64,000 bases of DNA from Candidatus Nomurabacteria bacterium (GTDB lineage Bacteria; Patescibacteriota; Saccharimonadia; Saccharimonadales; Saccharimonadaceae), in the NCBI GenBank assembly GCA_031290255.1, contig JAITNW010000012.1, positions 3,919 to 67,918 of the forward strand. The letters run 5' to 3'. The translations under genes were made by a program, and so were the position numbers. Under the pieces are notes generated by a model that was given only the letters and a program-made list of their open reading frames with translations, was not told the DNA's origin and ran no database searches. This document shows positions 4,934 to 64,000 of this stretch, piece by piece (the first letter of the stretch is position 1; every line of letters begins with the position of its first letter).

Positions 4934-6187
4934 ATGATCAACTTCAAAAGTTACGCAGAAAACTTCATCTCTGAGCCAGACTATTTAGAAAAACTTGAAA
5001 CCGCAAAAACCTTAATGTCCCGCCTCCAACAAGATCCCATGTCAGGCTGGGTAGACCTACCCATAGACTATGACAAGCCAGAATTCGCCCGCATCAAAAC
5101 CGCCGCAAAAAAGATCCAGCAAGATTCCAAATACCTAGTCTGTATTGGTATCGGCGGCAGCTACCTCGGCCACAAAGCTGTCATTGAGACATTAGGAGAA
5201 AATAGCCCCACCAAAATCCTCTACGCTGGCAACTCTCTCAGCCCGCTTGAGTTGAGCAAAATCATTGATCAGCTCGGCGACGCAGATTTCTCAGTCAACA
5301 TCATCAGCAAATCCGGCACCACCACCGAACCCGCCATAGCTTTCCGCATTTTCAAGCAAAAACTGATCGAAAAATACGGCAAAGCAGCAGCCAGCAAGCG
5401 TATCTACGCCACCACAGACGCCAGCAAAGGCGCCCTCCACAGTGAATCAGTGGAGAACGGCTATGAAATGTTCGTTATCCCAGATAATATCGGCGGTCGC
5501 TACTCAGTTCTCACCGCAGTTGGTCTCTTATCAATCGCCGTAGCAGGGATCGACATAGACAAGCTAATGGACGGCGCCGAAGAAGAGCGCGCCACCTTAA
5601 TTTCTGACGGTGGCAATGCCGCAGAATACGCAGCGCTCCGCAACGTCTTGCTCGACCACAATTTCAATATCGAAATCCTCGCCAACTTTGAGCCATCCTT
5701 CCTCTACTTCAATGAATGGTGGAAGCAACTCTTCGGCGAAAGCGAAGGCAAAAACGGCCAAGGTATTTACCCAGCCAGCGTCATCGACAGCACCGACCTC
5801 CACTCCATGGGCCAGTACATTCAAGACGGCAGACGCAATCTCTTCGAAACTTTCGTCAAGATTAGAGAATACATCAGCGATATTGATGTGCCAGTTATGG
5901 AGACAAACCTCGACGATTTGCGTTACCTAGAAGGCAAAGGCCTTAATTACATCAATGAACAGGCGCAGGCTGCAACCCGAGCCGCCCACCTTTCTGGCGG
6001 CGTACCAGTCCTCGAAATCACAATGCCAGATATTTCCGCCCGTTCTCTAGGCGCCCTCATCTATTTCTTCGAAATGAGTTGCGCCCTCAGCGGTTTCTTA
6101 CTAGGTGTTGACCCATTTAATCAACCTGGCGTTGAAGCCTACAAGAACAATATGTTCCACTTGCTCGGTAAGCCTGGCCACAAATAA
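4934..6187 (+). CDS. pgi: Glucose-6-phosphate isomerase (short Bacillus-type)
   Basis: 417 aa; motifs GIGGSYLG, ISKSGTTTEP, DNIGGRYSVLTAVGL, GESEGK. Confidence 0.9.
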   Translation: MINFKSYAENFISEPDYLEKLETAKTLMSRLQQDPMSGWVDLPIDYDKPEFARIKTAAKKIQQDSKYLVCIGIGGSYLGHKAVIETLGENSPTKILYAGNSLSPLELSKIIDQLGDADFSVNIISKSGTTTEPAIAFRIFKQKLIEKYGKAAASKRIYATTDASKGALHSESVENGYEMFVIPDNIGGRYSVLTAVGLLSIAVAGIDIDKLMDGAEEERATLISDGGNAAEYAALRNVLLDHNFNIEILANFEPSFLYFNEWWKQLFGESEGKNGQGIYPASVIDSTDLHSMGQYIQDGRRNLFETFVKIREYISDIDVPVMETNLDDLRYLEGKGLNYINEQAQAATRAAHLSGGVPVLEITMPDISARSLGALIYFFEMSCALSGFLLGVDPFNQPGVEAYKNNMFHLLGKPGHK

Positions 6188-7215
6188 TGAAAACTATCCT
6201 CATCACTGGTGGCGCAGGCTTTCTCGGCTCAATTCTCAAAAAAGAATTACTCAACAAAAAATACCAAGTGGTTTCAATAGACTTACAGAAAGACGATTTC
6301 GATCACCCCAATTTCACAGCAGTAATTGGCGACATCATAAACCCCAAAGCCCTAGCCAAACTCAGCCAAAAATACACATTTTCCGCCATCTTCCACTTCG
6401 CCGCCATGATGCCCCACGCCGTCAAAAAACGCCAAGATTTCTGGCGCACCAACGTCGACGGCACCAAAAACATCGCCGATTTCGCCAAAAAATATCACAT
6501 TCCCCGCCTAATTTTCGCCTCCACCAACTGTCTCTGGGGCAAAGCCACCAAGCAGGCCATCAAAGAAGACGACCCTCTCTGCCCCCAAGAAATCTACGGC
6601 AAATCCAAAATGGCCGCCGAAACCATCCTCCGCAAATACGAAAAAGACCTCAAGATCATCATCTTCCGCTGCCCACCCATCATCGACGAAAGCCGCATCG
6701 GCATCATCGGCATCATGTTCGAATTCGTCCGCGAAAACCGCAAACTCTGGATGGTAGGAAAAGGGCACAACCGCTACCAATTAGTCTACGCCGGCGACGT
6801 CACTGAGGCGATGCTCTCAGCACTAACATACCCGCAATCTAATATTTTCAACATCGGCTCGGACAGCGTACCCACCTTCCGCGAAATGTATACATTTATT
6901 ATTCAAGAATCCCACTCCAAAAGCCGCCTCGCCAGCTTCCCGCCCTACATCATCCACCCCATAATGCGTCTAGCCGCCACCCTCAGAATCTCTCCCCTCA
7001 GCCCCTACGCCGAAAACATGCTAGACAAAAACGTCTCCCTAGACACCACTAGAGCCAAACAAGAACTAAACTGGCAACCCACTCTAAACAACAGCGAAAT
7101 GCTCCTAAAAGCCTACACCTACTTCACCACCCACCGCAAAGAACTCACAGAAGGCACCACCAACAAAGACCTAGCCAAAATGGGCCTCATCAAAATCCTA
7201 AAAATCCTCTCCTAA
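6187..7215 (+). CDS. NAD-dependent epimerase/dehydratase (extended SDR)
   Basis: 342 aa; Rossmann motif ILITGGAGFLGS; catalytic YxxxK (EIYGKSKMAAE); start overlaps the pgi stop (TAATG). Confidence 0.8.
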   Translation: MKTILITGGAGFLGSILKKELLNKKYQVVSIDLQKDDFDHPNFTAVIGDIINPKALAKLSQKYTFSAIFHFAAMMPHAVKKRQDFWRTNVDGTKNIADFAKKYHIPRLIFASTNCLWGKATKQAIKEDDPLCPQEIYGKSKMAAETILRKYEKDLKIIIFRCPPIIDESRIGIIGIMFEFVRENRKLWMVGKGHNRYQLVYAGDVTEAMLSALTYPQSNIFNIGSDSVPTFREMYTFIIQESHSKSRLASFPPYIIHPIMRLAATLRISPLSPYAENMLDKNVSLDTTRAKQELNWQPTLNNSEMLLKAYTYFTTHRKELTEGTTNKDLAKMGLIKILKILS

Positions 7216-7261: not shown

Positions 7262-7290
7262 ATTATAGCACACCTTATTAAAAAAGTCAA
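7262..7290 (-). promoter_or_regulatory. Consensus sigma70-type promoter (TTGACT-N17-TATAAT) with no downstream ORF
   Basis: Reverse complement of 7262-7290 reads TTGACT, 17-nt spacer, TATAAT. It points into the 3' end of the + strand epimerase gene. Confidence 0.5.
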
Positions 7291-7303: not shown

Positions 7304-7445
7304 GAAAAATAAGCTAGGGCCTCCCAAAGGGGATGTGGAAGAGAGGCGTGCACGCCTCTACTTCCAGCCAACTGCAGCGCCTGCGCCCCGTGAAGACGGG
7401 CGCGCACGCAAAAGGGCCCCTTTGGGAGGCCCTAGCTTATTTTTC
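7304..7445 (+). repeat. Palindromic repeat element, copy A (~142 bp)
   Basis: 29-bp perfect outer inverted repeat (7304-7332 / 7417-7445) around a core shared with copies at 10185-10328 and 63799-63941. Sits 10 nt past the eno stop. Confidence 0.85.
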
Positions 7446-7455
7446 GCCTGAGTAC

Positions 7456-8790
<1,335 letters not shown>

Positions 8791-8872: not shown

Positions 8873-10159
8873 ATGAACAACGACAAAACCAACATTAATC
8901 CAAGCATGGAAGCCAACGATATTCCAGAGCAAAGCTCCCCATGGCAGTCAGCTCCAGAAATAACCCCCGCTCCAGAAACCAAACCAAAAAAGAAAAAAAT
9001 CGCCCTCATAGTCACGATTTGTGTCCTAGCTGTTCTACTGATAGGCGGTAGCGTATTTGCTGCAATATATACAGCGTGGCGCCAATCTGACACGGTAGTT
9101 ATCATGGACGCAGTTACGAGTACCATGAAGAAGTCCAAAATTGCCGTAACCGGAACGATGGACATAGAGTTTAATAAAACCAGTCAAGACGCATCTGGAC
9201 TGAAAGCCATCCATATTACGCTTGGGGCAGCCAATGACGGCGCCGACACCCGCGGCGACGGCACATTTACTATCGTTACGCCAGACAGTAAGGAGACTAC
9301 AATAGTTATCGGTGGCGCATTCGTATCCGATGGCACAATCTACTTCAGGATAGACGGCATCAGAGATGCTCTAGAGACCCTCGATTTACCAGACGAAGCT
9401 GAAGCTGTTCTCGGCTATATAGATAATTTAATCGACGATATAGACGGCGAATGGTATAAAATCCAAATTGCTGACCTCAACCTCGACCAAGAAAATGAAG
9501 AAAAGTATACCTGTATGGTCGACGCCATCAATTACGCCGCCAGCAAAGACAGCAAGAATGAATTAGCCGAGCTTTACACCGCATACCCATTTCTCATCCC
9601 AAATAAACAGCACGACACCGACTCTGACGGCAATGTAGTTTATGGCATTAAATGGGACGCCAATGATCTCGCCAGCTTCACAAACAATTTGCGCACAACC
9701 GAACTCTACAAGACCATCGGTTCCTGCGATCTTGTCGATGACGAAGACGCTACGATTGTCACTCCAGACGACGTCAGCGACGTCAGCATGCCAGACGATT
9801 TCCCAGAACTTAACCTACATATTGACCTTTGGTCACACGAGCTTCGTGGTTTCTCAACAGATTACAGCAAGGACGGCAACAGCCTAAAAGCGGAATTCCA
9901 TTTTGCCTATGACAAAAACGTCAACGTCGAAATCCCCCAAGAAGCAAAATCCATCAACGACCTAGTCAGCAGCATCGAAACCACCCTGAAAAATCTCGTC
10001 ACCTCACTCCTAGAAGACCAAATCTCCGAATACTGCTCCAGCTACACAGGTACCGTCCATGACCAATGTACCGAAACCTATTCCAAACAAATCCAAGATT
10101 ACCTAAAGGAAATGGACTTCAGCGACTACCTCTCCCTCGCCACCGGCAGCCAAGTCTAG
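8873..10159 (+). CDS. Hypothetical membrane-anchored extracytoplasmic protein
   Basis: 428-aa ORF; basic stretch KPKKKK then TM (IALIVTICVLAVLLIGGSVFAAIY); acidic extracytoplasmic part; no recognised domain. Confidence 0.55.
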   Translation: MNNDKTNINPSMEANDIPEQSSPWQSAPEITPAPETKPKKKKIALIVTICVLAVLLIGGSVFAAIYTAWRQSDTVVIMDAVTSTMKKSKIAVTGTMDIEFNKTSQDASGLKAIHITLGAANDGADTRGDGTFTIVTPDSKETTIVIGGAFVSDGTIYFRIDGIRDALETLDLPDEAEAVLGYIDNLIDDIDGEWYKIQIADLNLDQENEEKYTCMVDAINYAASKDSKNELAELYTAYPFLIPNKQHDTDSDGNVVYGIKWDANDLASFTNNLRTTELYKTIGSCDLVDDEDATIVTPDDVSDVSMPDDFPELNLHIDLWSHELRGFSTDYSKDGNSLKAEFHFAYDKNVNVEIPQEAKSINDLVSSIETTLKNLVTSLLEDQISEYCSSYTGTVHDQCTETYSKQIQDYLKEMDFSDYLSLATGSQV

Positions 10160-10184: not shown

Positions 10185-10328
10185 GAAAAGCCTAGCATAT
10201 CTTCTCCAAAGAGGATGTGGAAGAGGGGTGTGCACACCCCTACTTCCAGCCAACTGCAGCGCCTGCGCCCCGTAAAGACGGGCGCGCACGCAAAAGGGCC
10301 TCTTTGGAGAAGATATGCCAGGTTTTTC
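10185..10328 (+). repeat. Palindromic repeat element, copy B (~144 bp)
   Basis: Same core as copy A in the same orientation. Outer stem 10191-10213 / 10300-10322 (22 of 23 complementary). Lies between the 8873 gene stop and uvrC. Confidence 0.85.
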
Positions 10329-10359
10329 ACAACAAAGCCAAAATGATATAATAACCTAA

Positions 10360-17481: not shown

Positions 17482-17647
17482 TATAAAAGTATGTTAAAAT
17501 ATGTGAAGTTGGGGCAGAGAAGAGTGCTAGACGCTTAGCTCAGTTGCCTGTCCGAGCGAAGCGAGTAAAATCAATACTAGCGTATACGCTCTAGCCAACT
17601 CCAAACAAAACTGCACCTTCCAGTAACAAATCAGCCAAAATTAACCA

Positions 17648-17724
17648 GGGTCGTTAGCTCAGTTGGCTAGAGCGTATCTTTGACGTAGATAAGGTCGTAG
17701 GTTCGACTCCTACACGACCCACCA
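17648..17724 (+). tRNA. tRNA-Val (anticodon GAC)
   Basis: Acceptor GGGTCGT/ACGACCC, D arm GCTC..GAGC, anticodon arm TATCT-TTGACGT-AGATA, T arm GTAGG-TTCGACT-CCTAC, CCA. Confidence 0.9.
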
Positions 17725-19748: not shown

Positions 19749-19866
19749 AGGTAAAACCTAAGAATGCCCTCTCAAACATTATTGCGAACCAGAGAAAGCA
19801 CCCAGAGGGGCTGCTTTCCTGCGTAAGCACTCCTAATGTTTGAGAGGGCATTCTTAGGTTTTACCT
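19749..19866. repeat. 118-bp hairpin: 33-bp perfect inverted repeat around a 52-nt structured loop
   Basis: 19749-19781 is the exact reverse complement of 19834-19866; the loop holds its own stem GAAAGCA/TGCTTTC. Confidence 0.9.
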
Positions 19867-36256: not shown

Positions 36257-38989
36257 CTACCGTCGCCGTTTCTTATCCCCAGAATTATTATTCCCCCTCT
36301 TTTCACTATACAACTTCCCCAAATCCTTCAAACTAGAGCCTCCCCCCTCACGTTCCTCGGCCTGATTCGGGCTAATCTTCTGTTTCTTAAACTCAATCTG
36401 TGGCGTAGGTGGCGCAGCCTTTTTTTGCGGCATAAATTTGAAGTTCGGTTTTTGTACGGAATACTCATTGCCGTAATTCAAGTTAGGGTTCGATGGATTA
36501 TAAAACCCACCACTTCCAGAGCCATTTTGTCCCCCCGCTTCCCTACCTGAGTCAGACAACTCCTGCCTCCACTTCTCCGCCGCCTCAATGCTCTCGCGAA
36601 TTTCTTTCTCCACGTCTGCGCGTGGTCGCGAATAAAGCATTCTAGAGTTAGCAATAATCTGCGAGCTAAGGTCATTTGGAGCCTCTGGGATGCTCAGAGT
36701 AGTAGCAGAGAAGGCAGGAGCCTTCTCGCCAGAAATAATCATCGAAATCACGAAATGACGATTATGCATATTTAGCAGATCCGGTGCTTCAAAAGTTGGC
36801 TCAAACTGCTTAGACAGCATCGGTGCATCGTCCGCAGACACCCTAAACGACACCGTCGTGCCCACGTTGCCGAATACCGCATCCCGCACCGCATCCGTCA
36901 TCTGAGCGATATACTGGTTAGCTACGGTCAAATTGAGCCCATATTTGCGCGCCTCAGAAAGGATCACGGCAAAGGAATCCGTAGCAAAGTTTTGAAACTC
37001 ATCTACATAAAGATAAAAAGGTCGGCGATCTTCCACGCGCGGAATATCCGAACGCGACATCGCCGCCAGCTGCACCTTGGTCACCAAGAACGCGCCTAAG
37101 ATCCCCGCGTTATCCTCACCTATCAGACCCTTAGAAAGATTCACGATCAATATCTTCCCCTCATCCATAATCTTCCGAATATCAAAAGATGATTTCGGTT
37201 GCCCAATAATATTCCTAATAATCGGATTCGCCGTAAAAGCCCCCACCTTATTCAGCACAGGGGCCACGCTCTCGGTCACCTGCTTATCATTCCAGCTACC
37301 AAACTCATGCTTCCAGAACTGCAGCACGGTTACGTCCTTACAATACTCCAAGGTGTCTTTGCGGAATTGTTTATCTGTTAACATCCGAGAAATATCTAGC
37401 AAAGTAGTCTCTGGTCGATCAAGGAGGGCGAGCAGGGTATAGCGCAAAATATGCTCAAGTCTTGGCCCCCAAGACTCTCCAAACATCCGCTTCAGTACGC
37501 CAATCACCTCTGATGAAATATTAGGCTTACGTGACTCGTCGGTAAGTTCAAGTGGGTTAAACGCCACGGGATACTGCGTATCAGCAGGGTTAAAATACAC
37601 CACATCCTTCGCGCGCGATTCGGGGATAAACTTTAAGTTATTGACCGCAAAATCCCCATGCGGGTCAATAATACAATATCCCTGATTATGATAGATGTCC
37701 GACAAGGCAAAAAGCTCCAGAAGCCCAGACTTCCCTGCCCCCGTCTGCCCAATAATATAAACATGACGTGAGCGATCGCGACGCAGCATCCCAAATTGAT
37801 GCTTAATCCCTCGAAAATCCGTCAACCCAAAAGCAGAAATATTCTCATCCGTCGCCGGATTTCCCGTCAACATTGGCAATTTCGCTGGCGGTTCAGCCGT
37901 CTTATTCGTCGCCCATACAATATTTGGCGTTTCCACATTTGTATGTGGCAGATGGTAGACACTAGCGAGCTCAGAAATATTTAGCACAAAACCACTACTA
38001 GTAAACTGACGCATTTTGTATGCATCCAAATCCCCAGGGTTAAAACTTCCACCCAACATCTTAAATCCATTCAGATTTGTCGAGTTAAATTGCTTAAATG
38101 TCCCCACCAATGCTTGCATATTGAGCTTAGCATTTATCTCGCTCTGCCCAGCATAAACTAGACGGATCTTTACATCATAGCCCAATTTTGCATCCTTCTC
38201 TTCAGCCTTAGATAGCTGAGTCTTGACCCGTTCGGATAACTCAACCTTATTAGTCTCAGACTTCTCGCCTCCACCAGCCGGTGGTGCCCACAGCGCCCCA
38301 AGCGCCTCAATGAACCATACGAAATCAAATCCACCCACTCTGAATGACTTCCTGCCGCTCTTGATTTTATTTGCCCATTTATCGGTATTCTTATGCCAAT
38401 CGTCAGATATTGGCCTAGTCAGAATTTGAATCCAGAGCTCTTCATCTCCCTCTGAATTTAGTTTTGCAAGCGTACCCGTAATGCCAGCTAAAGGATCCAC
38501 CTCGAAAGACTCAAAAGTCTTAATCGGGAGTGCTTCATTCTCTATCAGCCCTATCTCTGCAGAATAAATTACTGGATATTTTTTACGATGATCCACATAG
38601 TCTTCATCCATTTTATAAATCTGCACCGAAGGATATTGAGAATAAATTTGCCCCTCTACAAAAGATTGTAAGATCTTCGGCACCCACACAAAGAACCTAA
38701 TCTGCCCACCAGTCGAAGCAATCTCGAAAGACAAATGCTCCTGCACTCCCCCAGAATTTTTTAGCTCCATCTTGTCGCGGAGAATGCCATGCAATGATGC
38801 GAATAATTGCTCTGCGGCCAACTCTTTTTTATCATTAGTTTTTGGAATCTCAAGCATCAATAAGACGCTATCGACATTCAAGATCTTCAAGCGGTTCAAT
38901 TTCTTATAATTCCTAATCGTCAAAAACACCAAAACCAGCACAATAGGGATCCAAACAATCGGCGTCAGCAAGAAACGTATAAACTCCAT
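36257..38989 (-). CDS. VirD4/TraD/TrwB-like coupling-protein ATPase with N-terminal TM and large N-domain
   Basis: 910 aa; Walker A IIGQTGAGKSG, Walker B FYLYVDEFQNF, ARKYGLNLTVANQ; low-complexity Gly/Asn/Lys tail. Confidence 0.7.
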   Translation of the reverse strand: MEFIRFLLTPIVWIPIVLVLVFLTIRNYKKLNRLKILNVDSVLLMLEIPKTNDKKELAAEQLFASLHGILRDKMELKNSGGVQEHLSFEIASTGGQIRFFVWVPKILQSFVEGQIYSQYPSVQIYKMDEDYVDHRKKYPVIYSAEIGLIENEALPIKTFESFEVDPLAGITGTLAKLNSEGDEELWIQILTRPISDDWHKNTDKWANKIKSGRKSFRVGGFDFVWFIEALGALWAPPAGGGEKSETNKVELSERVKTQLSKAEEKDAKLGYDVKIRLVYAGQSEINAKLNMQALVGTFKQFNSTNLNGFKMLGGSFNPGDLDAYKMRQFTSSGFVLNISELASVYHLPHTNVETPNIVWATNKTAEPPAKLPMLTGNPATDENISAFGLTDFRGIKHQFGMLRRDRSRHVYIIGQTGAGKSGLLELFALSDIYHNQGYCIIDPHGDFAVNNLKFIPESRAKDVVYFNPADTQYPVAFNPLELTDESRKPNISSEVIGVLKRMFGESWGPRLEHILRYTLLALLDRPETTLLDISRMLTDKQFRKDTLEYCKDVTVLQFWKHEFGSWNDKQVTESVAPVLNKVGAFTANPIIRNIIGQPKSSFDIRKIMDEGKILIVNLSKGLIGEDNAGILGAFLVTKVQLAAMSRSDIPRVEDRRPFYLYVDEFQNFATDSFAVILSEARKYGLNLTVANQYIAQMTDAVRDAVFGNVGTTVSFRVSADDAPMLSKQFEPTFEAPDLLNMHNRHFVISMIISGEKAPAFSATTLSIPEAPNDLSSQIIANSRMLYSRPRADVEKEIRESIEAAEKWRQELSDSGREAGGQNGSGSGGFYNPSNPNLNYGNEYSVQKPNFKFMPQKKAAPPTPQIEFKKQKISPNQAEEREGGGSSLKDLGKLYSEKRGNNNSGDKKRRR

Positions 38990-39017
38990 ACTTCCCCTAT
39001 TTTATCACACTAGCGCT

Positions 39018-53360: not shown

Positions 53361-55331
53361 CTATGCCCCCGTGATATAAGATTTAATATCATCAATCTGA
53401 TCGCGAATCTCCGCCGCCCGCTCAAATTCCAAATTCGCTGCCGCAAGTTGCATTTGCGAGTTCAATTCTTTGATAATGGCCGGATACTCCTCGCGCGGAA
53501 TCCGCTTCAAGTCCAGCTTCTTTGATTTATCCTTCTCTGGGATAATCGCTCTCAGCCCCTCAGAAATTTCTTTCGCCACTGACTGTGGCGTAATGCCGTG
53601 CTCTTCATTATATTTCCGCTGAATATCGCGTCGCCGATTTGTTTCATCGATCGCGCGCTCCATCGAGCCCGTGATATTATCAGCATACATAATCACTTTC
53701 CCCTCCACATTTCGCGCTGCCCGCCCAATCGTCTGAATTAGCGCTTGTTCGCTTCTTAGGAACCCTTCTTTATCTGCATCAAGAATCGCCACCAAAGACA
53801 CTTCCGGCAGATCCAAGCCTTCACGTAGCAGATTGATCCCAATCAGCACATCGTAAACCCCCGCCCGTAGATCTCGCAGAATATCCCCTCTCTCCAAAGT
53901 ATCGATATCGCTATGCAAATACGCCGTCTTGAGCCCCAATTCAATCAAATGCGCCGACAAATCCTCTGCCATGCGCTTAGTCAGAGTAGTCACGAGTACC
54001 CTTTCGCCCTTCGCCGTCCTTTTATCTATTTCTTCAATCAAATCGTCGATCTGATTATCCGTAGGGCGCACTTCCACCTCCGGATCTAATAGTCCGGTGG
54101 GGCGAATTACCTGTTGTGCCGGTTCCGGACTATGTGTCAATTCGTAATCTCCAGGAGTCGCCGAAACATAAACTGCTTGATTGATATGCGCATCAAATTC
54201 CCCAAAAGTTAGCGGGCGATTATCAAGCGCGCTCGGCAAGCGGAACCCATACTCCACCAAAGTCTCCTTCCGCGCATGATCACCGTTATACATTCCCCTC
54301 ACCTGCGGCAAAGTCATATGCGACTCATCCACCATCATCAAAAAATCCTTCGGAAAATAATCCATTAGTGTCGATGGCGGTTGCCCCTGCACGCGCCCCT
54401 CCAGGTGCCTGGAATAATTCTCAATTCCCTTCACAAATCCGGTTTCCTCAAGCATTTCCAGGTCGTATTTCACCCTCTGAGACAAACGTTGCACTTCCAG
54501 ATATTTATGTTCTTTCTCAAAATGTTTTAGCCGTTCGTCAAATTCCGCCCGAATTCGCTTGATTGCCGGCTCCAAAGACTCCTTAGACGTAGCATAATGC
54601 GTATTTGGAAAAATCCCAATCTCATCAGGAGTCGCCAACACTTCTGCCGTCAAAGGGTCAATCATCTTTATATTTTCTATCGCATCAAAACCGAATTCTA
54701 GCCGATATGCCCTATCGCCCGACGCCGGAAAAACATCAATCGTGTCGCCCCGCACCCTGAAAGTTCCCCGCTCAAATGAGATATCATTTCGATGGTACTG
54801 TACTTCTGTTAATAGCCGAATAAATTGCGAAAAGTCCCGCTTCTCACCTTTAACTATTCGCACCGCCATCGCCTTATAATTATCTGGCGAACCAATACCG
54901 TAAATACAGGACACCGAAGCCACAATAATCGTATCGCGCCGCGTCAGCAGTGCCTCTGTCGCAGCGTGCCTCAATCGATCGATTTCCTCATTAATCGCGC
55001 TATCCTTCTCAATATAAGTGTCTGAGCTTGCAATATAAGCCTCCGGCTGATAATAATCAAAATAACTCACAAAATAATGCACCTCATTCTCCGGGAAAAA
55101 ATCCCGAAACTCTGAATAAAGCTGTGCCGCCAAAGTCTTATTGTGCGCCAGCACGAGCGTCGGCACATTCTTCTGTGCAATCAAATTCGCCATCGTAAAA
55201 GTTTTGCCCGACCCCGTCACGCCAAGCAACGTTTGCTCCCTAGCGCCATGATTCAGCCCATGCATCAACTGAGCAATCGCACTCGGCTGATCGCCCGTTG
55301 GTTTGTACTTGCTCACAAGCTTGAAATTCAT
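53361..55331 (-). CDS. uvrB: Excinuclease ABC subunit B
   Basis: 656 aa; [14 protein letters not shown]-terminal UVR helix [20 protein letters not shown] ends 7 nt before the ATG, so the mRNA is probably leaderless. Confidence 0.95.
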
Positions 55332-60461: not shown

Positions 60462-62303
60462 CTATTTTTTCACTAACGCATCGCAGTTAGCGCTAAGTCG
60501 CTTACAAAAAGCTTCGCGGGCCTCATCGGAGTTATCATTGTTGCCCTTCCATGCAAATAGCGCCGCATCTTGGAGGGCGCGCGCAAACGAGAATGTCACT
60601 GGCCAAGGGAACGGCCCTTCATTAGTCACAGCTTGCAGATTATTTGTTGCCTGCTCCATGCCTTGCCCACCACTTAAGAAGACTACGCCAGCGATATTCT
60701 GTGGCACGTGACCTCGTAGTACCGTCGCAGTAACTTTGCCCACTTCTTCTGAAGAAGACTGCTGTTCAAATTGCTTGCCGGCCAGAACCATATTCACCTT
60801 CAATATACAGCTCTTCAGATCCACATGCTTATTTGCTAGCTCCTCAAATAGTTTATCTAAAATTTTCCCAGTTACGTCTGCATTTTGTTGGACCGTATAA
60901 TATCCGTCATAGACGACTTCCGGCTCTACAATCGGTACGATCCCAGCGTCTTGACAATCTTTTGCATACTGCGCCAAAATTTCGGCGTTTTTAGCGATTG
61001 CCATATCTGTGGGCATTTCATCTTTTATTTCAAATGCCGCGCGCCACTTTGCAAAACGCGCGCCCATATCATAATACTCTTTTAACCTATCTGGCAGGCC
61101 CTCTAGCCCAACTGTATATTTCTCGGGGGAGCCATCAAAGTTCTGCAGGCCTTGGTCGACTTTTATACCAGGTATAATACCTTTTCGTTTTAGGAATGTT
61201 ACAAAATCCAGACCATCATCTGCTTTCTGTCTTGCGGTTTCGTCAAATAAAATTACACCACTTATGTACTTTTCTAGATTTGGCGTAGTGAAGAATAAAT
61301 TGCGATAATCTCTGCGATGCTGCTCGTCATCCGTGATCCCCATGCTTTCGAATTTCTTATGTATAGATCCGCCAGACTCATCTGCTGCTAGAATTCCCTT
61401 GCCGGCACTCATCAATTTCTTGGCGTTAGTGCGAAGCTCTAAGGTATGTAGACTTTCTTTGCCACCAACCTCCTCTATGCGATACTCCTCACCGATAATA
61501 TTTTCTTCTAGACTTTTCAGGCCAAGCGTACCATTCAATGTCGCTGTCTCTATGTTAGCGCGCGCCAGGAGGAGCGCTTCTTTGGCGGATTTCCCCAGCA
61601 TTACTGAGGCCAGTACGGTGGCGGCAATAATTGAACGCGTACTCAGATCTGTCATTAAATCTTTCTTCTCTTCTAGACTCCAGCCTACGCGACGACCGCT
61701 AAATTCGATATAATCTGGCAGAATCTTGAACATCGGCCGACTTGTTTCCATATCTATGTCTGCAAAAATCAAGGTTGCTCTTTCGATCAAAGCATTGATG
61801 AAATCCATCTCCTTATTGCAGCGCTTGCTCACGAAAACCGCAAGTCGCACGGCAGAGAAATTATCCAGATACGTCAAGATTTGCTGACTAAGTTCAGCAG
61901 TGATTACTGCAGACCTATCAATATAAATCCAATTTGGTGGCATATTCGGCGCCCGCCAACTGCTTGGCTGTGGATTACCTGGCGTCAGGTAGCTAATATT
62001 CTCATCTTGGCACAACATATAGCGATAAGTGGAAGGCGGATACTTCACGATTACCTGCCCTGATAGAAGACTTGCCGGCGCATCGGAAATCTCTGCCTCC
62101 ACGCCAAAACGTGCCAACACTTCAAGAGAGATGGCTGCGCCACCGTAAATCCCGACGCGCGAGAAAAATCGGTGGCTTGACCCATCAAAGGCGAAATCTA
62201 GCCAGTTTACGTTATTTTGATCGCGCTCAAAGTTGTTTTGCTTATCATCTAAGCGCAAATACACATCTTTGGTGATGTCTCCCACAATTAGAATACTGCC
62301 CAT
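60462..62303 (-). CDS. fba: Class I fructose-bisphosphate aldolase fused to an N-terminal PfkB/ribokinase-like (apparently degenerate) domain
   Basis: 613 aa. Residues ~285-613 are collinear with animal-type class I FBA (GKGILAADESGGSI, ILFDET..QKADDG, GIKVD.G, FAKWR, IVPIVEPE, LKVNMV, FLSGGQ, FSFARALQ). Residues 1-280 resemble the PfkB fold (ILIVGDITKDVYL, GGAAISLEVLARFG) but lack GAGD. Confidence 0.8.
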   Translation of the reverse strand: MGSILIVGDITKDVYLRLDDKQNNFERDQNNVNWLDFAFDGSSHRFFSRVGIYGGAAISLEVLARFGVEAEISDAPASLLSGQVIVKYPPSTYRYMLCQDENISYLTPGNPQPSSWRAPNMPPNWIYIDRSAVITAELSQQILTYLDNFSAVRLAVFVSKRCNKEMDFINALIERATLIFADIDMETSRPMFKILPDYIEFSGRRVGWSLEEKKDLMTDLSTRSIIAATVLASVMLGKSAKEALLLARANIETATLNGTLGLKSLEENIIGEEYRIEEVGGKESLHTLELRTNAKKLMSAGKGILAADESGGSIHKKFESMGITDDEQHRRDYRNLFFTTPNLEKYISGVILFDETARQKADDGLDFVTFLKRKGIIPGIKVDQGLQNFDGSPEKYTVGLEGLPDRLKEYYDMGARFAKWRAAFEIKDEMPTDMAIAKNAEILAQYAKDCQDAGIVPIVEPEVVYDGYYTVQQNADVTGKILDKLFEELANKHVDLKSCILKVNMVLAGKQFEQQSSSEEVGKVTATVLRGHVPQNIAGVVFLSGGQGMEQATNNLQAVTNEGPFPWPVTFSFARALQDAALFAWKGNNDNSDEAREAFCKRLSANCDALVKK

Positions 62304-62315
62304 ACTTCTATATTA

Positions 62316-64000
62316 TCACAACTCGCCCCAATCGTGTCCAATCTGCACGTCAACGGCTAACTTTACGGGGAGTACTGGCGCAATTTGCTCCATAGTTTCT
62401 CGTAAGATCTTAGCAACTTCTTCTTTTTGTGATTCATCACATTCCACGATTAGCGAATCGTGTACCTGTAATAGCAAATCGGCATCTGCGGGTAAGACCT
62501 GATCAAGTTTTATCATCGCAAGCTTCATCAGGTCCGCTTCAGTTCCCTGAATCGGCATATTGGCCGCCGCTCTTTCGGCAGCCGCACGCACGACATAATT
62601 TGGCGACTTCACATCTGGTGTAGGCCTGCGTCGGCCGAAGACTGTTTCTACATATCCCTCATCTCTTGCCTGCGCCAGTGTCGCATCCAGATATCGACGT
62701 ATTGGCAACCTGAGTTCAAAGTATTTTTCAATAAAATCCTTAGATTCTGAGACGCTCATGCCGGTTGCTTCCGATAGACCCTTTGCAGACATTCCATATA
62801 ACACGCCAAAGTTTATCACTTTAGCTGCGCGCCTCTGGTCTGGGGTTACTTGGTCGATCGGTACATGGAATGAGTCGCTGGCAGTTTTCGTGTGAATATC
62901 TAGCCCTGCATTAAAATCTGCAATCAATTTATCGTCGCCAGCCAGAGCTGCGGCCAAGCGAAGCTCAAACTGCGCATAGTCTGCGCTCACAAAAATCTTC
63001 CCTTTGCTCGCTATAAATCCATCACGAATCCGTTTCCCCTCATCCGTCCGTACGGGAATATTTTGCAAATTTGGATTCACACTACTTAATCGTCCTGTCG
63101 CGGTGACGTCTTGCGTATAGGTGGTATGTATCCTTTGATTACTATCCGCAAGTTGTGGCAGCGGCGCTACATACGTGCTAAGTAACTTAGAAATCTCGCG
63201 AATGCGCTCAATCTCTGGGATAATTGGGTGAAGAGCGCGTAATTTGTCGAGTTCTTTTTGTCCAGTAGAATGAAACCGTCGCATTTTTTTGACGCCCTTC
63301 GTCGGCAGCCCGAGTTCTTCATATAGTATTTCAGAAAGCTGCATCGGCGAGTTGATATTGAATGGATGCCCCGCCAAGTTGTAGATCTCCTGCTCAATAC
63401 TCTTAATCTCCTGGTCAAACCCCACCGCCATCGCTGCAAATTTAGCAGGATCTATCGTCACGCCCCGTTTCTCCATTTTGTATAAGATTGGGATAAGCGG
63501 AAAGTCAAGATTCTTTGCCACCCACTTAAGTTTCGGGAACTCAATGAACGCTTGTTGCTGTCTCTCATATTCTTGCGCAGTGACATCCTCAACGCTAAGG
63601 CCAACTTGATCATTCTTCCGAGCCAACGGATCCAGCAAAAAAGCCACCTGCCCCAAATCCCAAAACTTCTCTCCCGCCAGAATCTTCCGAGCAACTTCTT
63701 CATCCTCATGCATAGAATTCTTCACATTCCAACTAAGATATAAATCTGGATCCTCTGCGATTTTGTGATTTTCTCCACTAGAGCCAGCAAGCGTCTGAGG
63801 AGCTTCCAGTAATGGTTCAGAGGAAACTGTGGAAGAGGGGCGAGCCTCGCCCCTACTTCCAGCCGAACGCAAAGGGCGGTGCCCCGTAAAGACGGGCGCA
63901 CCCCCCAAAGTGTTTTCATCTGAACCATTATTGGAAGCTCCCTCACCAACATCTAACTTCCCAAACTTCCACACCAAACTCCGAAACTGAAACCGATTAA
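62316..64000 (-). CDS. polA: DNA polymerase I (partial; continues beyond the window)
   Basis: Pol motifs DYAQFELRLAA, RRAAKVINFGVLYGMS, LLQVHDSLIVE. The frame is open upstream of the ORF-track TTG at 63977 to nt 64000, so the 5'-nuclease domain lies off-window. Confidence 0.9.
   Translation of the reverse strand, partial: NRFQFRSLVWKFGKLDVGEGASNNGSDENTLGGAPVFTGHRPLRSAGSRGEARPSSTVSSEPLLEAPQTLAGSSGENHKIAEDPDLYLSWNVKNSMHEDEEVARKILAGEKFWDLGQVAFLLDPLARKNDQVGLSVEDVTAQEYERQQQAFIEFPKLKWVAKNLDFPLIPILYKMEKRGVTIDPAKFAAMAVGFDQEIKSIEQEIYNLAGHPFNINSPMQLSEILYEELGLPTKGVKKMRRFHSTGQKELDKLRALHPIIPEIERIREISKLLSTYVAPLPQLADSNQRIHTTYTQDVTATGRLSSVNPNLQNIPVRTDEGKRIRDGFIASKGKIFVSADYAQFELRLAAALAGDDKLIADFNAGLDIHTKTASDSFHVPIDQVTPDQRRAAKVINFGVLYGMSAKGLSEATGMSVSESKDFIEKYFELRLPIRRYLDATLAQARDEGYVETVFGRRRPTPDVKSPNYVVRAAAERAAANMPIQGTEADLMKLAMIKLDQVLPADADLLLQVHDSLIVECDESQKEEVAKILRETMEQIAPVLPVKLAVDVQIGHDWGEL
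63799..63941 (+). repeat. Palindromic repeat element, copy C (~143 bp), inside the polA reading frame
   Basis: Same core and orientation as copies A and B; outer arms 63799-63827 / 63912-63941 nearly complementary. Translated in the polA frame as GASNNGSDENTLGGAPVFTGHRPLRSAGSRGEARPSSTVSSEPLLEAP. Confidence 0.8.

What the first reader, a model, noticed from the sequence alone, without database searches (positions are those of the whole stretch)
7304..7445. Family of ~143-bp palindromic elements whose stems keep pairing through compensatory changes
Seen: three copies lie in the same orientation on the + strand (7304-7445, 10185-10328, 63799-63941). They share the core ..TGTGGAAGAG-stem-CTACTTCCAGCC....GCCCCGT(G/A)AAGACGGGCGC.., enclosed by a long outer stem of 29 bp perfect in A, 22/23 in B and about 26/29 in C. 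The inner hairpin GGAAG-[7 bp]-loop-[7 bp]-A-CTTCC differs between copies only by paired substitutions: A has AGAGGCG/CGCCTCT, B has AGGGGTG/CACCCCT, and C has AGGGGCG/CGCCCCT. The inner part of the outer stem of A and B also covaries (CTCCCAAAGGGG/CCCCTTTGGGAG versus TCTCCAAAGAG/CTCTTTGGAGA), while the distal arms are almost unrelated in sequence yet still pair. Copies A and B sit 10 and 26 nt beyond stop codons. Inference: selection acts on the structure (RNA or cruciform DNA), not the sequence. Possibilities are a MITE/REP-like mobile palindrome, a terminator or mRNA-stabiliser module, or a new structured-RNA class. I do not recognise the sequence.
Basis: seen in the sequence. Interest (0 to 1): 0.65.

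Follow-up and report, generated by a model that had tools for sequence, protein, structure and literature searches.

The report
In-frame palindromic repeats of Saccharibacteria
These are copies of a roughly 145-bp hairpin-forming repeat from termite-gut Saccharibacteria that sits between genes and also, in frame, inside essential genes such as polA; it resembles the Rickettsia palindromic elements but has a conserved two-hairpin core and arms that differ at every locus.

Summary
Three same-strand copies (7304-7445, 10185-10328, 63799-63941) each fold into a 28-30-bp outer stem around two inner hairpins. Sixteen copies were found in all, from termite-gut Saccharibacteria metagenomes. Covariation is strong: 95% of cells are paired, 20 of 37 pairs changed on both sides, and 0 of 500 shuffles did as well.

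Copy C lies inside the polA reading frame. About half of all copies lie in frame, with no stop codons, inside housekeeping genes (polA, obg twice, ileS, uvrB, rplV, dnaX twice, methyltransferases), in either orientation.

The ~85-nt core is about 90% identical between genomes whose synonymous sites are saturated. The distal arms are unrelated between loci yet pair. In obg and polA the upstream arm is native coding sequence, so the other arm is an inverted copy of it. Arm mismatches are G·T on the element strand 25 times and A·C 4 times.

There is no Rfam match, target-site duplication, transposase or recurring neighbour gene.

Best reading: a selfish, non-autonomous palindromic repeat like the Rickettsia palindromic elements, translated where it is genic, whose arms are built from local sequence, probably by template switching. 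It is a new variant of a known kind and appears unreported.

The parts
7304..7445 (+). Copy A, whole palindrome, between the convergent epimerase (6187-7215 +) and enolase (7456-8748 -) genes
   Evidence: CM 119 bits
7304..7332 (+). Copy A left arm. It pairs perfectly (29/29) with 7417-7445. The arm sequence is locus-specific, with an A-run on its outer end
7336..7366 (+). Copy A hairpin P2: invariant base UGGAAGAG/CU-A-CUUCCA with a bulged A, and a variable, covarying apex
7377..7409 (+). Copy A hairpin P3: invariant apex CCCGU-RAAG-ACGGG, a bulge on the 3' side, and a covarying lower stem
7417..7445 (+). Copy A right arm, ending in a T-run
10185..10328 (+). Copy B, whole palindrome (arms 10185-10214 and 10299-10328, core 10215-10298). 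It lies 25 nt after the stop of ORF 8873-10159 and 31 nt before uvrC. A promoter-like site for uvrC overlaps its right end
63799..63941 (+). Copy C, whole palindrome (arms 63799-63826 and 63914-63941, core 63827-63913). It is antisense to polA and in frame within it, encoding ...GASNNGSDENTLGGAPVFTGHRPLRSAGSRGEARPSSTVSSEPLLEAP...
62316..64000 (-). polA reading frame that carries copy C in the linker after the 5'-nuclease domain. The frame is open to the end of the window, and the Pfam DNA_pol_A match covers residues 181-552
53361..55331 (-). uvrB without the element: an empty counterpart of the occupied uvrB in locus L008 (80% amino-acid identity)

Best explanation
The three copies belong to a multi-copy family of non-autonomous, selfish palindromic DNA repeats in termite-gut Saccharibacteria (Patescibacteria/CPR).

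Shown:
- Each copy has an ~85-nt conserved, asymmetric core of two hairpins (P2 and P3), closed by a ~10-bp semi-conserved inner stem (TGAAGARG/CYTCTTCA, with a tandem G·A mismatch) and by 20-37 bp of distal arms that are specific to each locus.
- Copies lie in spacers, typically at the 3' ends of convergent genes.
- About half lie inside linkers or termini of housekeeping proteins. There the host reading frame always runs through them without a stop, in either orientation.

Inferred:
- Genic copies are translated as inserts of roughly 45-60 residues, as the Rickettsia palindromic elements are. They are not spliced out.
- The core is the unit that spreads or is homogenised between loci, presumably because a trans-acting protein recognises its invariant nucleotides. 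That protein was not identified.
- The arms are built locally. One arm is pre-existing flanking sequence and the other is its inverted copy, most likely made and repaired by intramolecular template switching during replication around the stable core. Once arms exist, the core can flip between them or be replaced.
- Folding of one particular strand matters for persistence, as single-stranded DNA at the fork or as RNA.
For: Family and copy number: 3 copies in the window, 1 in a Ca. Saccharibacteria MAG, 11 more in termite-gut metagenome contigs and 1 via a protein hit. In the source sample, word depth is 11-14x in the flanks and up to ~500x over the core, with 25 contigs laid. The assembler's contig L016 breaks inside the cores of copies A and B.

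Genic copies: polA (window), obg in L002 and L007, ileS in L004, uvrB in L008, rplV in L009/P0122, a UPF0020 methyltransferase in L003, YraN in L018/P0124, YjbR in P0123, and dnaX in P0125 with two copies in opposite frames. All have the frame open across the element and domain matches on both sides. Only about 19% of frames are open across the intergenic copies, so seven of seven by chance is about 1e-4 or less.

Mobility or turnover: flanks and neighbouring genes are unrelated. uvrB is occupied in L008 and empty in the window at 80% amino-acid identity.

Core conservation: between L002 and L007 the core is ~90% identical, while fourfold-degenerate sites of the surrounding obg are 47% identical, i.e. 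saturated.

Local origin of arms: in obg, four genes with three core types (L002, L007, L021, L022) all start the palindrome 1-2 codons after LLRxL. The upstream arm encodes the helix that element-free Obg homologues also have there. In polA, the upstream arm of the window copy (GASNNGSDEN) aligns with KSENNAFEE of a 39%-identical orthologue that carries a different core in the opposite orientation.

Template-switch signature: a duplicated fragment of the element's left end lies just outside the non-native arm in L002 and L008. Template switching is a documented source of perfect stems (PMC8794818).

Strand-specific folding: the arms hold 425 Watson-Crick pairs, 25 G·T and 4 A·C on the element strand (p = 1e-4). 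The element strand is the C-rich strand in 13 of 16 copies.

Negative results: no Rfam family, no target-site duplication, no transposase in the window.
Against: - No enzyme, donor copy or transposition intermediate was found.
- No pair of near-identical genomes with and without a copy was available, so the exact inserted unit is undefined.
- In L008 uvrB the visible arm and the fragment both lie within the segment that is extra relative to the window's uvrB. The hidden upstream arm does not look like the conserved SCIYGIG coding sequence, so 'one arm is native' may not hold at every site.
- In obg, the outer boundary of the palindrome is the same in four lineages. This could equally mean one ancient palindrome inherited vertically, with cores replaced later.
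- The G·T bias and the strict pairing could reflect a real function of the folded strand rather than selfish persistence.
- Translation of the inserts is inferred from open frames only; no RNA or protein data exist.
- Sixteen copies from perhaps ten genomes is a small sample.
Confidence: 0.6

Rival explanations
1. A functional structured nucleic acid. The element strand folds, as RNA or as single-stranded DNA, into a three-way junction that the cell uses. Possible roles are a bidirectional terminator or 3'-end stabiliser, a processing site, or a replication-linked protein-binding site. The copies would be kept by selection for that function.
For: Strong covariation and about 50 invariant core positions. 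G·T over A·C bias on one strand, independent of host-gene direction. Orientation bias relative to GC skew, 13 of 16. A, B and L012 have A-runs and T-runs outside the stem and lie at gene ends; several other intergenic copies sit between convergent genes. The core is conserved beyond neutral divergence.
Against: About half the copies are inside essential ORFs, in both orientations, where a terminator or processing site would be harmful. Genic copies lack T-runs. No conserved promoter can lie in arms that differ at every locus. There is no Rfam match. Presence is not conserved at orthologous sites, as uvrB shows. There is no recurring neighbouring gene.
Confidence: 0.17
2. A purely mutational by-product. 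These genomes, with GC skew of 0.3-0.5, are prone to replication template switching. This creates and keeps perfect hairpins around any stable GC-rich nucleus, with no transposition and no selection on the structure.
For: P2 and P3 show only double changes and no G·U intermediates. One arm is native sequence in obg and polA. There are duplicated end fragments. Several other long-armed palindromes with different cores occur in the same contigs and in the window (19749-19866). A 17-nt inverted copy of part of tRNA-Val lies 60 nt upstream of that gene. Published mechanism: PMC8794818.
Against: It cannot explain how the same ~85-nt core, ~90-100% identical, comes to lie in at least 16 unrelated loci and in different genomes. 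It cannot explain the roughly 40-fold excess depth of the core. It does not predict the strand-specific G·T bias.
Confidence: 0.12
3. An intron-like or bypassed intervening sequence. Genic copies would be removed from the mRNA, for example by cleavage of the long stem and ligation, or skipped by the ribosome, so that the proteins stay intact.
For: The long perfect stem brings the two ends together. The copies lie in essential genes.
Against: Every genic copy keeps the host frame open and in register through the element. That would be unnecessary if the element were removed. Whole-palindrome lengths are mostly not multiples of three. No ribozyme or intron family matches. Many copies are intergenic.
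Confidence: 0.04
4. A member of the REP/REPIN-RAYT or IS200/IS605-derived (PATE) class, moved as single-stranded DNA by a Y1 HUH transposase that recognises hairpins.
For: The constraint is strand-specific and orientation is biased relative to GC skew. An invariant GTAG lies on the antisense strand directly 5' of the variable P2 apex, as in REPs (from memory of the REP literature). In the sister types, both hairpins carry the same loop motif, GTAACGAC or GACG. There is no target-site duplication.
Against: No Y1 transposase is encoded in the window or beside any copy examined. P2 and P3 of this family are unlike each other. Locus-specific 20-37-bp arms and in-frame genic copies are not features of REPs. 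The GTAG is only four bases.
Confidence: 0.07

Closest known systems
Rickettsia palindromic elements (RPE-1 to RPE-10)
   Same: Both are palindromic repeats of about 100-150 bp in a reduced-genome bacterium. Both are found in spacers and, unusually often, in frame inside unrelated housekeeping ORFs, where they add a peptide segment. Neither has a known transposase (review PMC10969869; here).
   Different: The host phylum is different (Saccharibacteria). No sequence relationship was tested. In this family only the asymmetric two-hairpin core and about 10 bp of stem are conserved, and the long arms differ at every locus. At least one arm is native gene sequence in obg and polA. The core occurs in both orientations at the same gene site.
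MITEs (Correia/NEMIS, ERIC, Nezha and similar)
   Same: Small, non-coding, multi-copy and hairpin-forming, and sometimes fused in frame to ORFs.
   Different: MITEs are defined by conserved terminal inverted repeats, a target-site duplication and a related autonomous IS. Conserved termini and duplications were looked for and not found, and no partner IS was seen.
REP / REPIN elements with RAYT transposases
   Same: Structure is conserved more than sequence, the behaviour is strand-specific, and a GTAG lies next to a variable palindrome.
   Different: REPs are 20-40 nt and extragenic, and whole REPINs are conserved within a genome. No RAYT was seen here. The arms here are locus-specific, and many copies are genic.
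Double-hairpin elements and GC clusters of fungal mitochondria (from memory; not checked here)
   Same: Mobile elements with a core of two adjacent hairpins that insert into spacers and into variable parts of coding and rRNA genes.
   Different: They are organellar, short, and lack the long locus-specific outer arms.
Hairpins created by replication template switching (PMC8794818)
   Same: A single event makes a perfect inverted copy of neighbouring sequence. This gives 'compensated' stems without intermediates and leaves small duplications at the return point.
   Different: That process explains the arms, and perhaps the stem apices, but not the spread of one conserved core to many loci.
Parvovirus/AAV terminal repeats (analogy only)
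   Same: A T- or Y-shaped fold of about 145 nt, with two small internal hairpins closed by a long stem. The internal part occurs in both 'flip' and 'flop' orientations relative to the stem (L002 versus L007).
   Different: Those are ends of a linear viral genome with Rep-binding sites. These are internal chromosomal repeats with no link to any virus.

Membership tests
MITE | Terminal inverted repeats conserved between copies | tested here: not met
   Only the inner ~10 bp (TGAAGARG/CYTCTTCA) recur. The distal 20-37 bp are unrelated between 16 copies.
MITE | Target-site duplication flanking the element | tested here: not met
   No direct repeat occurs outside the arms in 15 copies.
MITE | Autonomous IS with the same ends in the genome | tested here: inconclusive
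   No transposase was found among 47 window ORFs or 10 neighbours of intergenic copies. No whole genome was available.
Rickettsia palindromic elements | Palindromic repeat of about 100-150 bp inserted in frame in unrelated housekeeping ORFs as well as in spacers | tested here: met
   polA, obg (twice), ileS, uvrB, rplV, dnaX (twice), methyltransferases, YraN and YjbR all have open frames through the element.
Rickettsia palindromic elements | Sequence belongs to one of the RPE consensus families of Rickettsia | not tested
   No RPE consensus was on hand. The host is a Saccharibacterium, so this is an analogue and not a member.
REP/REPIN-RAYT | 20-40-nt imperfect palindrome preceded by a conserved GTAG | tested here: inconclusive
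   GTAG is invariant on the antisense strand next to the P2 apex in 13 of 14 copies, but the element is about 145 bp with two unlike hairpins.
REP/REPIN-RAYT | Cognate Y1 (RAYT) gene | tested here: inconclusive
   None was found in the window or beside the copies. No complete genome was searched.
Any Rfam RNA family (riboswitch, ribozyme, sRNA) | Score at or above the family's gathering threshold | tested here: not met
   Only tRNAs pass in the window. At E up to 10 there are only sub-threshold chance hits (best 23.5 bits against a threshold of 42).
Intrinsic terminator | GC-rich stem directly followed by a U-run | tested here: not met
   A, B and L012 have T-runs outside the stem. C and all genic copies do not. 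The scanner does not call A or B. This is not a property of the family.
Integron attC site | Conserved R''/L'' and L'/R' boxes at the base of the stem, with a variable centre | tested here: not met
   The arrangement is the reverse: the centre is conserved and the base varies.
Intron / intervening sequence | Removed from the transcript | not testable with these tools
   No RNA runs hold the locus. Open, in-register frames through every genic copy argue against removal.

The most novel reading that the evidence does not exclude
The element represents a so far undescribed way for DNA to spread. A small two-hairpin core enters or is copied into a site and then builds its own long stem out of the host's flanking sequence by inverted duplication. 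It can afterwards flip or be replaced within that stem. This would create locus-specific hairpins and new peptide segments in essential proteins across Saccharibacteria.
Probability: 0.3. Interest if true: 0.8.

Novelty: new variant of a known kind. Interest (0 to 1): 0.64.

Why it matters
- It would be a second, independent case, after Rickettsia, of palindromic repeats colonising essential protein-coding genes in frame. This time the host is the Candidate Phyla Radiation, whose tiny genomes are usually thought to be poor in repeats.
- The repeats add 45-60-residue segments to PolA, Obg, IleRS, UvrB, DnaX and L22. They break short-read assemblies at their cores, and they can mislead gene calling and orthology.
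- The combination of locus-specific arms with a conserved core gives a natural system for asking how hairpins are made and kept: by selection or by template switching.
- It also points to an unknown protein that recognises the P2/P3 hairpins.

Tried and rejected
- **Rfam.** Searches at gathering and permissive thresholds returned only tRNAs and chance hits.
- **Genome collection scan.** It gave only one true extra species. The Algimonas hit L001 is chance.
- **Metagenome scan.** L005 is chance, and L010 duplicates L002.
- **Viral contigs.** Two chance hits and no link to phage.
- **RNA evidence.** No RNA run holds the locus, and the DNA runs are kept only as contigs. Flip/flop variants and excision therefore could not be examined.
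- **Peptide searches for insert-bearing proteins.** These were limited by short-query statistics: 3 hits and 1 hit. The counts do not measure abundance.
- **DNA of P0123 and P0125.** Not retrievable.
- **Empty-site search by synteny between loci and the window.** Only uvrB gave an occupied/empty pair, and L008 is cut inside the core, so the upstream arm is unseen.
- **Target-site duplications.** None.
- **Transposase, reverse transcriptase or nuclease partner.** None in the window or beside the copies.
- **Segmental duplication.** Rejected, because the flanks are unrelated.
- **Archaeal origin.** Suggested at first by the look of the tRNAs, then rejected because of PolA, UvrABC and the Saccharibacteria hits.
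- **Nested insertion into the P2 loop of an older copy, as an explanation for the end fragments.** Rejected, because the matching right half is absent.

Full report
**1. The observation**

The repeat finder reports their arms as 29 nt at 100%, 30 nt at 93% and 28 nt at 93% complementary, separated by 84-87 nt. The 19-mer GCCCCGTRAAGACGGGCGC occurs three times against 0.01 expected by chance.

Each copy folds into one long outer stem that closes two hairpins, which I call P2 and P3. The z-scores are -11 to -13, and they are about the same on either strand. The flanks of the three copies share nothing, so the copies are not duplicated loci.

Two details need correcting. Copy A is 10 nt from the stop of the minus-strand enolase gene and lies between convergent genes. 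Copy C is not intergenic.

**2. Host and family size**

The window encodes PolA, UvrA, UvrB, UvrC, enolase, PBP2, FtsW and similar proteins, so the host is a bacterium. A pattern scan of one genome per species found the element once, in a Candidatus Saccharibacteria MAG from termite gut (L002).

A metagenome scan found eleven more true copies, all in termite-gut contigs. A protein hit led to one more copy (L018). The window itself is found in a termite-gut metagenome run.

In that run the flanks have a word depth of 11-14x, while the core reaches about 500x, with 25 contigs laid on it. The assembler's contig ends inside the cores of copies A and B. The family therefore has tens of copy-equivalents in the sample.

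A covariance model built from 14 copies finds only the three copies in the window. In other loci it also finds weaker 'sister' elements. These have the same architecture and a P3-like hairpin, CCYGT-AACG-ACRGG, with the same bulge on the 3' side (L008:5775-5915, L017:1296-1396, L014:5140-5260).

**3. Anatomy**

The alignment of 14 copies has about 50 invariant columns. These include UGUGGAAGAG, CUACUUCCAGCC and CCCGU-RAAG-ACGGGC.

Pairing statistics:
- 95.0% of cells are paired, against 81.5% in shuffles.
- 20 of 37 pairs show changes on both sides (0 of 500 shuffles reach this).
- Versions with the partner columns slid give 38-54% paired.

Within P2 and P3, every change is a full double change; there are no G·U intermediates. 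Outside the core lies a ~10-12-bp inner stem that is semi-conserved (TTCTGAAGAAG/CTTCTGAAGAA) and contains a tandem G·A/A·G mismatch. Beyond that, the arms (20-37 bp) have no similarity between loci yet pair almost perfectly: 425 Watson-Crick pairs in 15 copies.

Transition mismatches in the arms are G·T on the element strand 25 times and A·C 4 times (binomial p = 1e-4). This holds also in copies that are antisense to their host gene. What is constrained is therefore the fold of one particular strand, not of the host mRNA.

The host genomes have very strong GC skew (0.3-0.5). The element strand is the C-rich strand in 13 of 16 copies. The mutational pressure implied by that skew would favour A·C mismatches, not G·T, so the bias looks like selection rather than mutation. 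This last step is inference.

**4. Genic copies: the main new fact**

Copy C lies in the minus-strand polA frame. The frame is open from the window edge through the element into the DNA_pol_A domain. The upstream residues (RFQFRSLVWKF) are the end of the 5'-nuclease domain, so C sits in the inter-domain linker.

Host genes of the other genic copies:

| Host gene or protein | Locus or protein | Note |
|---|---|---|
| obg | L002, L007 | between the GTPase and C-terminal domains; the core is in opposite orientations in the two |
| ileS | L004 | |
| uvrB | L008 | |
| UPF0020 methyltransferase | L003 | |
| L22 C-terminus | L009 / P0122 | |
| YraN N-terminus | L018 / P0124 | |
| YjbR-like protein | P0123 | |
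| dnaX | P0125 | two copies, read in a sense frame and an antisense frame |

A RumA-like gene in L008 holds a fragment of this element followed by a sister-type element, plus a third palindrome.

Four of the six frames of the core are free of stops. In intergenic copies only about 19% of frames are open across the whole element. All genic copies being open and in register is therefore far beyond chance. Whole-palindrome lengths are mostly not multiples of three. This argues that the inserts are translated, not removed. No RNA data exist to confirm it.

**5. Spread, and where the arms come from**

Flanks and neighbouring genes are unrelated, and no gene recurs beside the copies. uvrB is occupied in L008 and empty in the window, at 80% amino-acid identity.

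Between L002 and L007, fourfold-degenerate sites of obg are 47% identical, which is saturated. The two cores are about 90% identical and inverted relative to each other. The core is therefore either under strong purifying selection or recently spread or homogenised, while the arms diverge freely.

In obg, four genes with three different cores (L002, L007, L021, L022) all begin the palindrome 1-2 codons after the LLRxL motif. The upstream arm encodes the helix extension that element-free Obg proteins also have at that position. In polA, the window's upstream arm (GASNNGSDEN) aligns with KSENNAFEE in a 39%-identical orthologue. That orthologue carries a sister-type core in the opposite orientation at the same place. 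In these genes, then, one arm is native coding sequence and the other arm is its inverted copy.

In L002 and L008, a duplicated fragment of the element's left end (TGAAGAAGCTGTGGAAGAG...) lies just outside the non-native arm. This is what a template switch would leave if it returned upstream of its point of departure. Template switching is known to create and repair perfect stems in one step (PMC8794818). It would also explain the absence of one-sided intermediates in P2 and P3.

The same contigs and the window hold further long-armed palindromes with other cores. The window also holds a 17-nt inverted copy of part of tRNA-Val 60 nt upstream of that gene. Local inverted copying therefore appears common in these genomes.

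Against a simple rule: in L008 uvrB the visible arm lies in the extra segment relative to the window's gene, and the unseen partner does not look like the conserved native sequence.

**6. Explanation and rivals**

Best reading (confidence 0.6): this is a selfish, non-autonomous palindromic repeat that behaves like the Rickettsia palindromic elements (review PMC10969869). It is tolerated at gene ends and, when translated, in protein linkers. The conserved core is the part that spreads, through an unidentified trans-acting factor. Its long arms are made from local sequence.

Rivals:
- A functional folded RNA or single-stranded DNA module (0.17). Supported by the covariation, the strand bias and the terminator-like look of A, B and L012. 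Contradicted by genic copies in both orientations and by non-conserved presence.
- A purely mutational hairpin without mobility (0.12). It explains the arms but not one core in at least 16 loci.
- A REP/RAYT-like or IS200-like single-stranded DNA element (0.07). Supported by a GTAG next to P2 and by strand specificity, but no Y1 gene was seen.
- An intron-like sequence (0.04). Contradicted by the open frames.

**7. Comparison and novelty**

No Rfam family matches. The MITE criteria of conserved termini and target-site duplication are not met. The arrangement is the reverse of an integron attC site.

The behaviour matches RPEs, but the host phylum, the asymmetric conserved core, the locus-specific arms and the flipping differ. 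Literature searches for palindromic or MITE-type elements in Saccharibacteria or Patescibacteria found nothing. I rate it a new variant of a known kind, with interest 0.64.

The most novel reading not excluded is a core that builds its own stem from host sequence, which would be a new insertion mechanism (probability about 0.3).

Noticed in passing
window 19749-19866: A second long palindrome: 33-bp perfect arms around a different 52-nt structured core (z = -13.6), in the spacer after the BipA/TypA gene. Its core was not found in any other locus held. The architecture is the same as in the finding but the family is different.
   Followed up: partly
whole window, and loci L002-L018: GC skew is extremely strong, about -0.1 to -0.34 across the window and |0.15-0.5| in related contigs. 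In the window it is independent of gene orientation, whereas AT skew flips with gene direction near 32 kb. This is unusual for bacteria and may be linked to asymmetric replication or repair.
   Followed up: partly
window 17584-17600 versus 17661-17677: A perfect 17-nt inverted copy of the D-arm region of tRNA-Val lies 60 nt upstream of the tRNA gene. It is either a local inverted duplication of the template-switch type or a pairing partner for the precursor.
   Followed up: no
window about 32000-39000: A low-GC island (35-39% GC against about 47-50%) holds small ORFs of unknown function, a Zot-like P-loop protein (34517-35194), a DUF2726 protein and a 910-residue TrwB/TraG-like coupling protein (36257-38989). 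It may be an integrated filamentous-phage-like or conjugative element. L006 carries a 92%-identical copy of the coupling-protein gene.
   Followed up: partly
L004 4131-4245 and 1028-1121; L008 5011-5141; L003 3693-3816; L013 75-199: Further long-armed palindromes (18-28-bp arms, 54-93-nt cores) of other core types. Two are inside ileS and the RumA-like gene. Several have hairpins with GACG or AACG tetraloops and a bulge on the 3' side, like P3.
   Followed up: partly
L022 (obg of protein P0004), linker region: A palindrome of about 190 nt with arms of about 55-60 bp occupies the same obg linker site and starts two codons after LLRE. P0003, P0050 and P0059 also have long unrelated inserts at this site.
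   Followed up: partly
L002 5535-5562; L008 7718-7735 and 5725-5757: Isolated fragments of the element's left end (TCTGAAGAAGCTGTGGAAGAG, plus or minus the 5' half of P2) lie directly outside an arm of a complete element. In L008 one such fragment lies in front of a sister-type element.
   Followed up: partly
window 7262-7290 (-) and 10324-10352 (+): A strong sigma-70-like site (TTGACT-17-TATAAT with TG) lies next to copy A and points away from it, antisense to the epimerase gene. A second site uses the T-run of copy B's right arm as its -35 element and points into uvrC.
   Followed up: no
window 60462-62303 (-): The class-I fructose-bisphosphate aldolase ORF has 613 residues, but the Pfam domain covers only residues 289-611. 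The 288-residue N-terminal extension is unexplained; it could be a mis-called start, a fusion or more inserted sequence.
   Followed up: no
protein P0125 (DnaX, from the representative library): One DnaX protein carries two element-derived segments about 60 residues apart. One is read in the antisense frame (GGAPVFTGHR...ARPSSTVSS) and one in the sense frame (ETVEEMAASHLLPAEREGRNPVKTG).
   Followed up: partly
L015 2779-2938: The stop codons of both convergent neighbours (a SpoU methylase and a thioredoxin-like protein) lie inside the two arms. The palindrome therefore supplies or overlaps the last codons of both genes.
   Followed up: no
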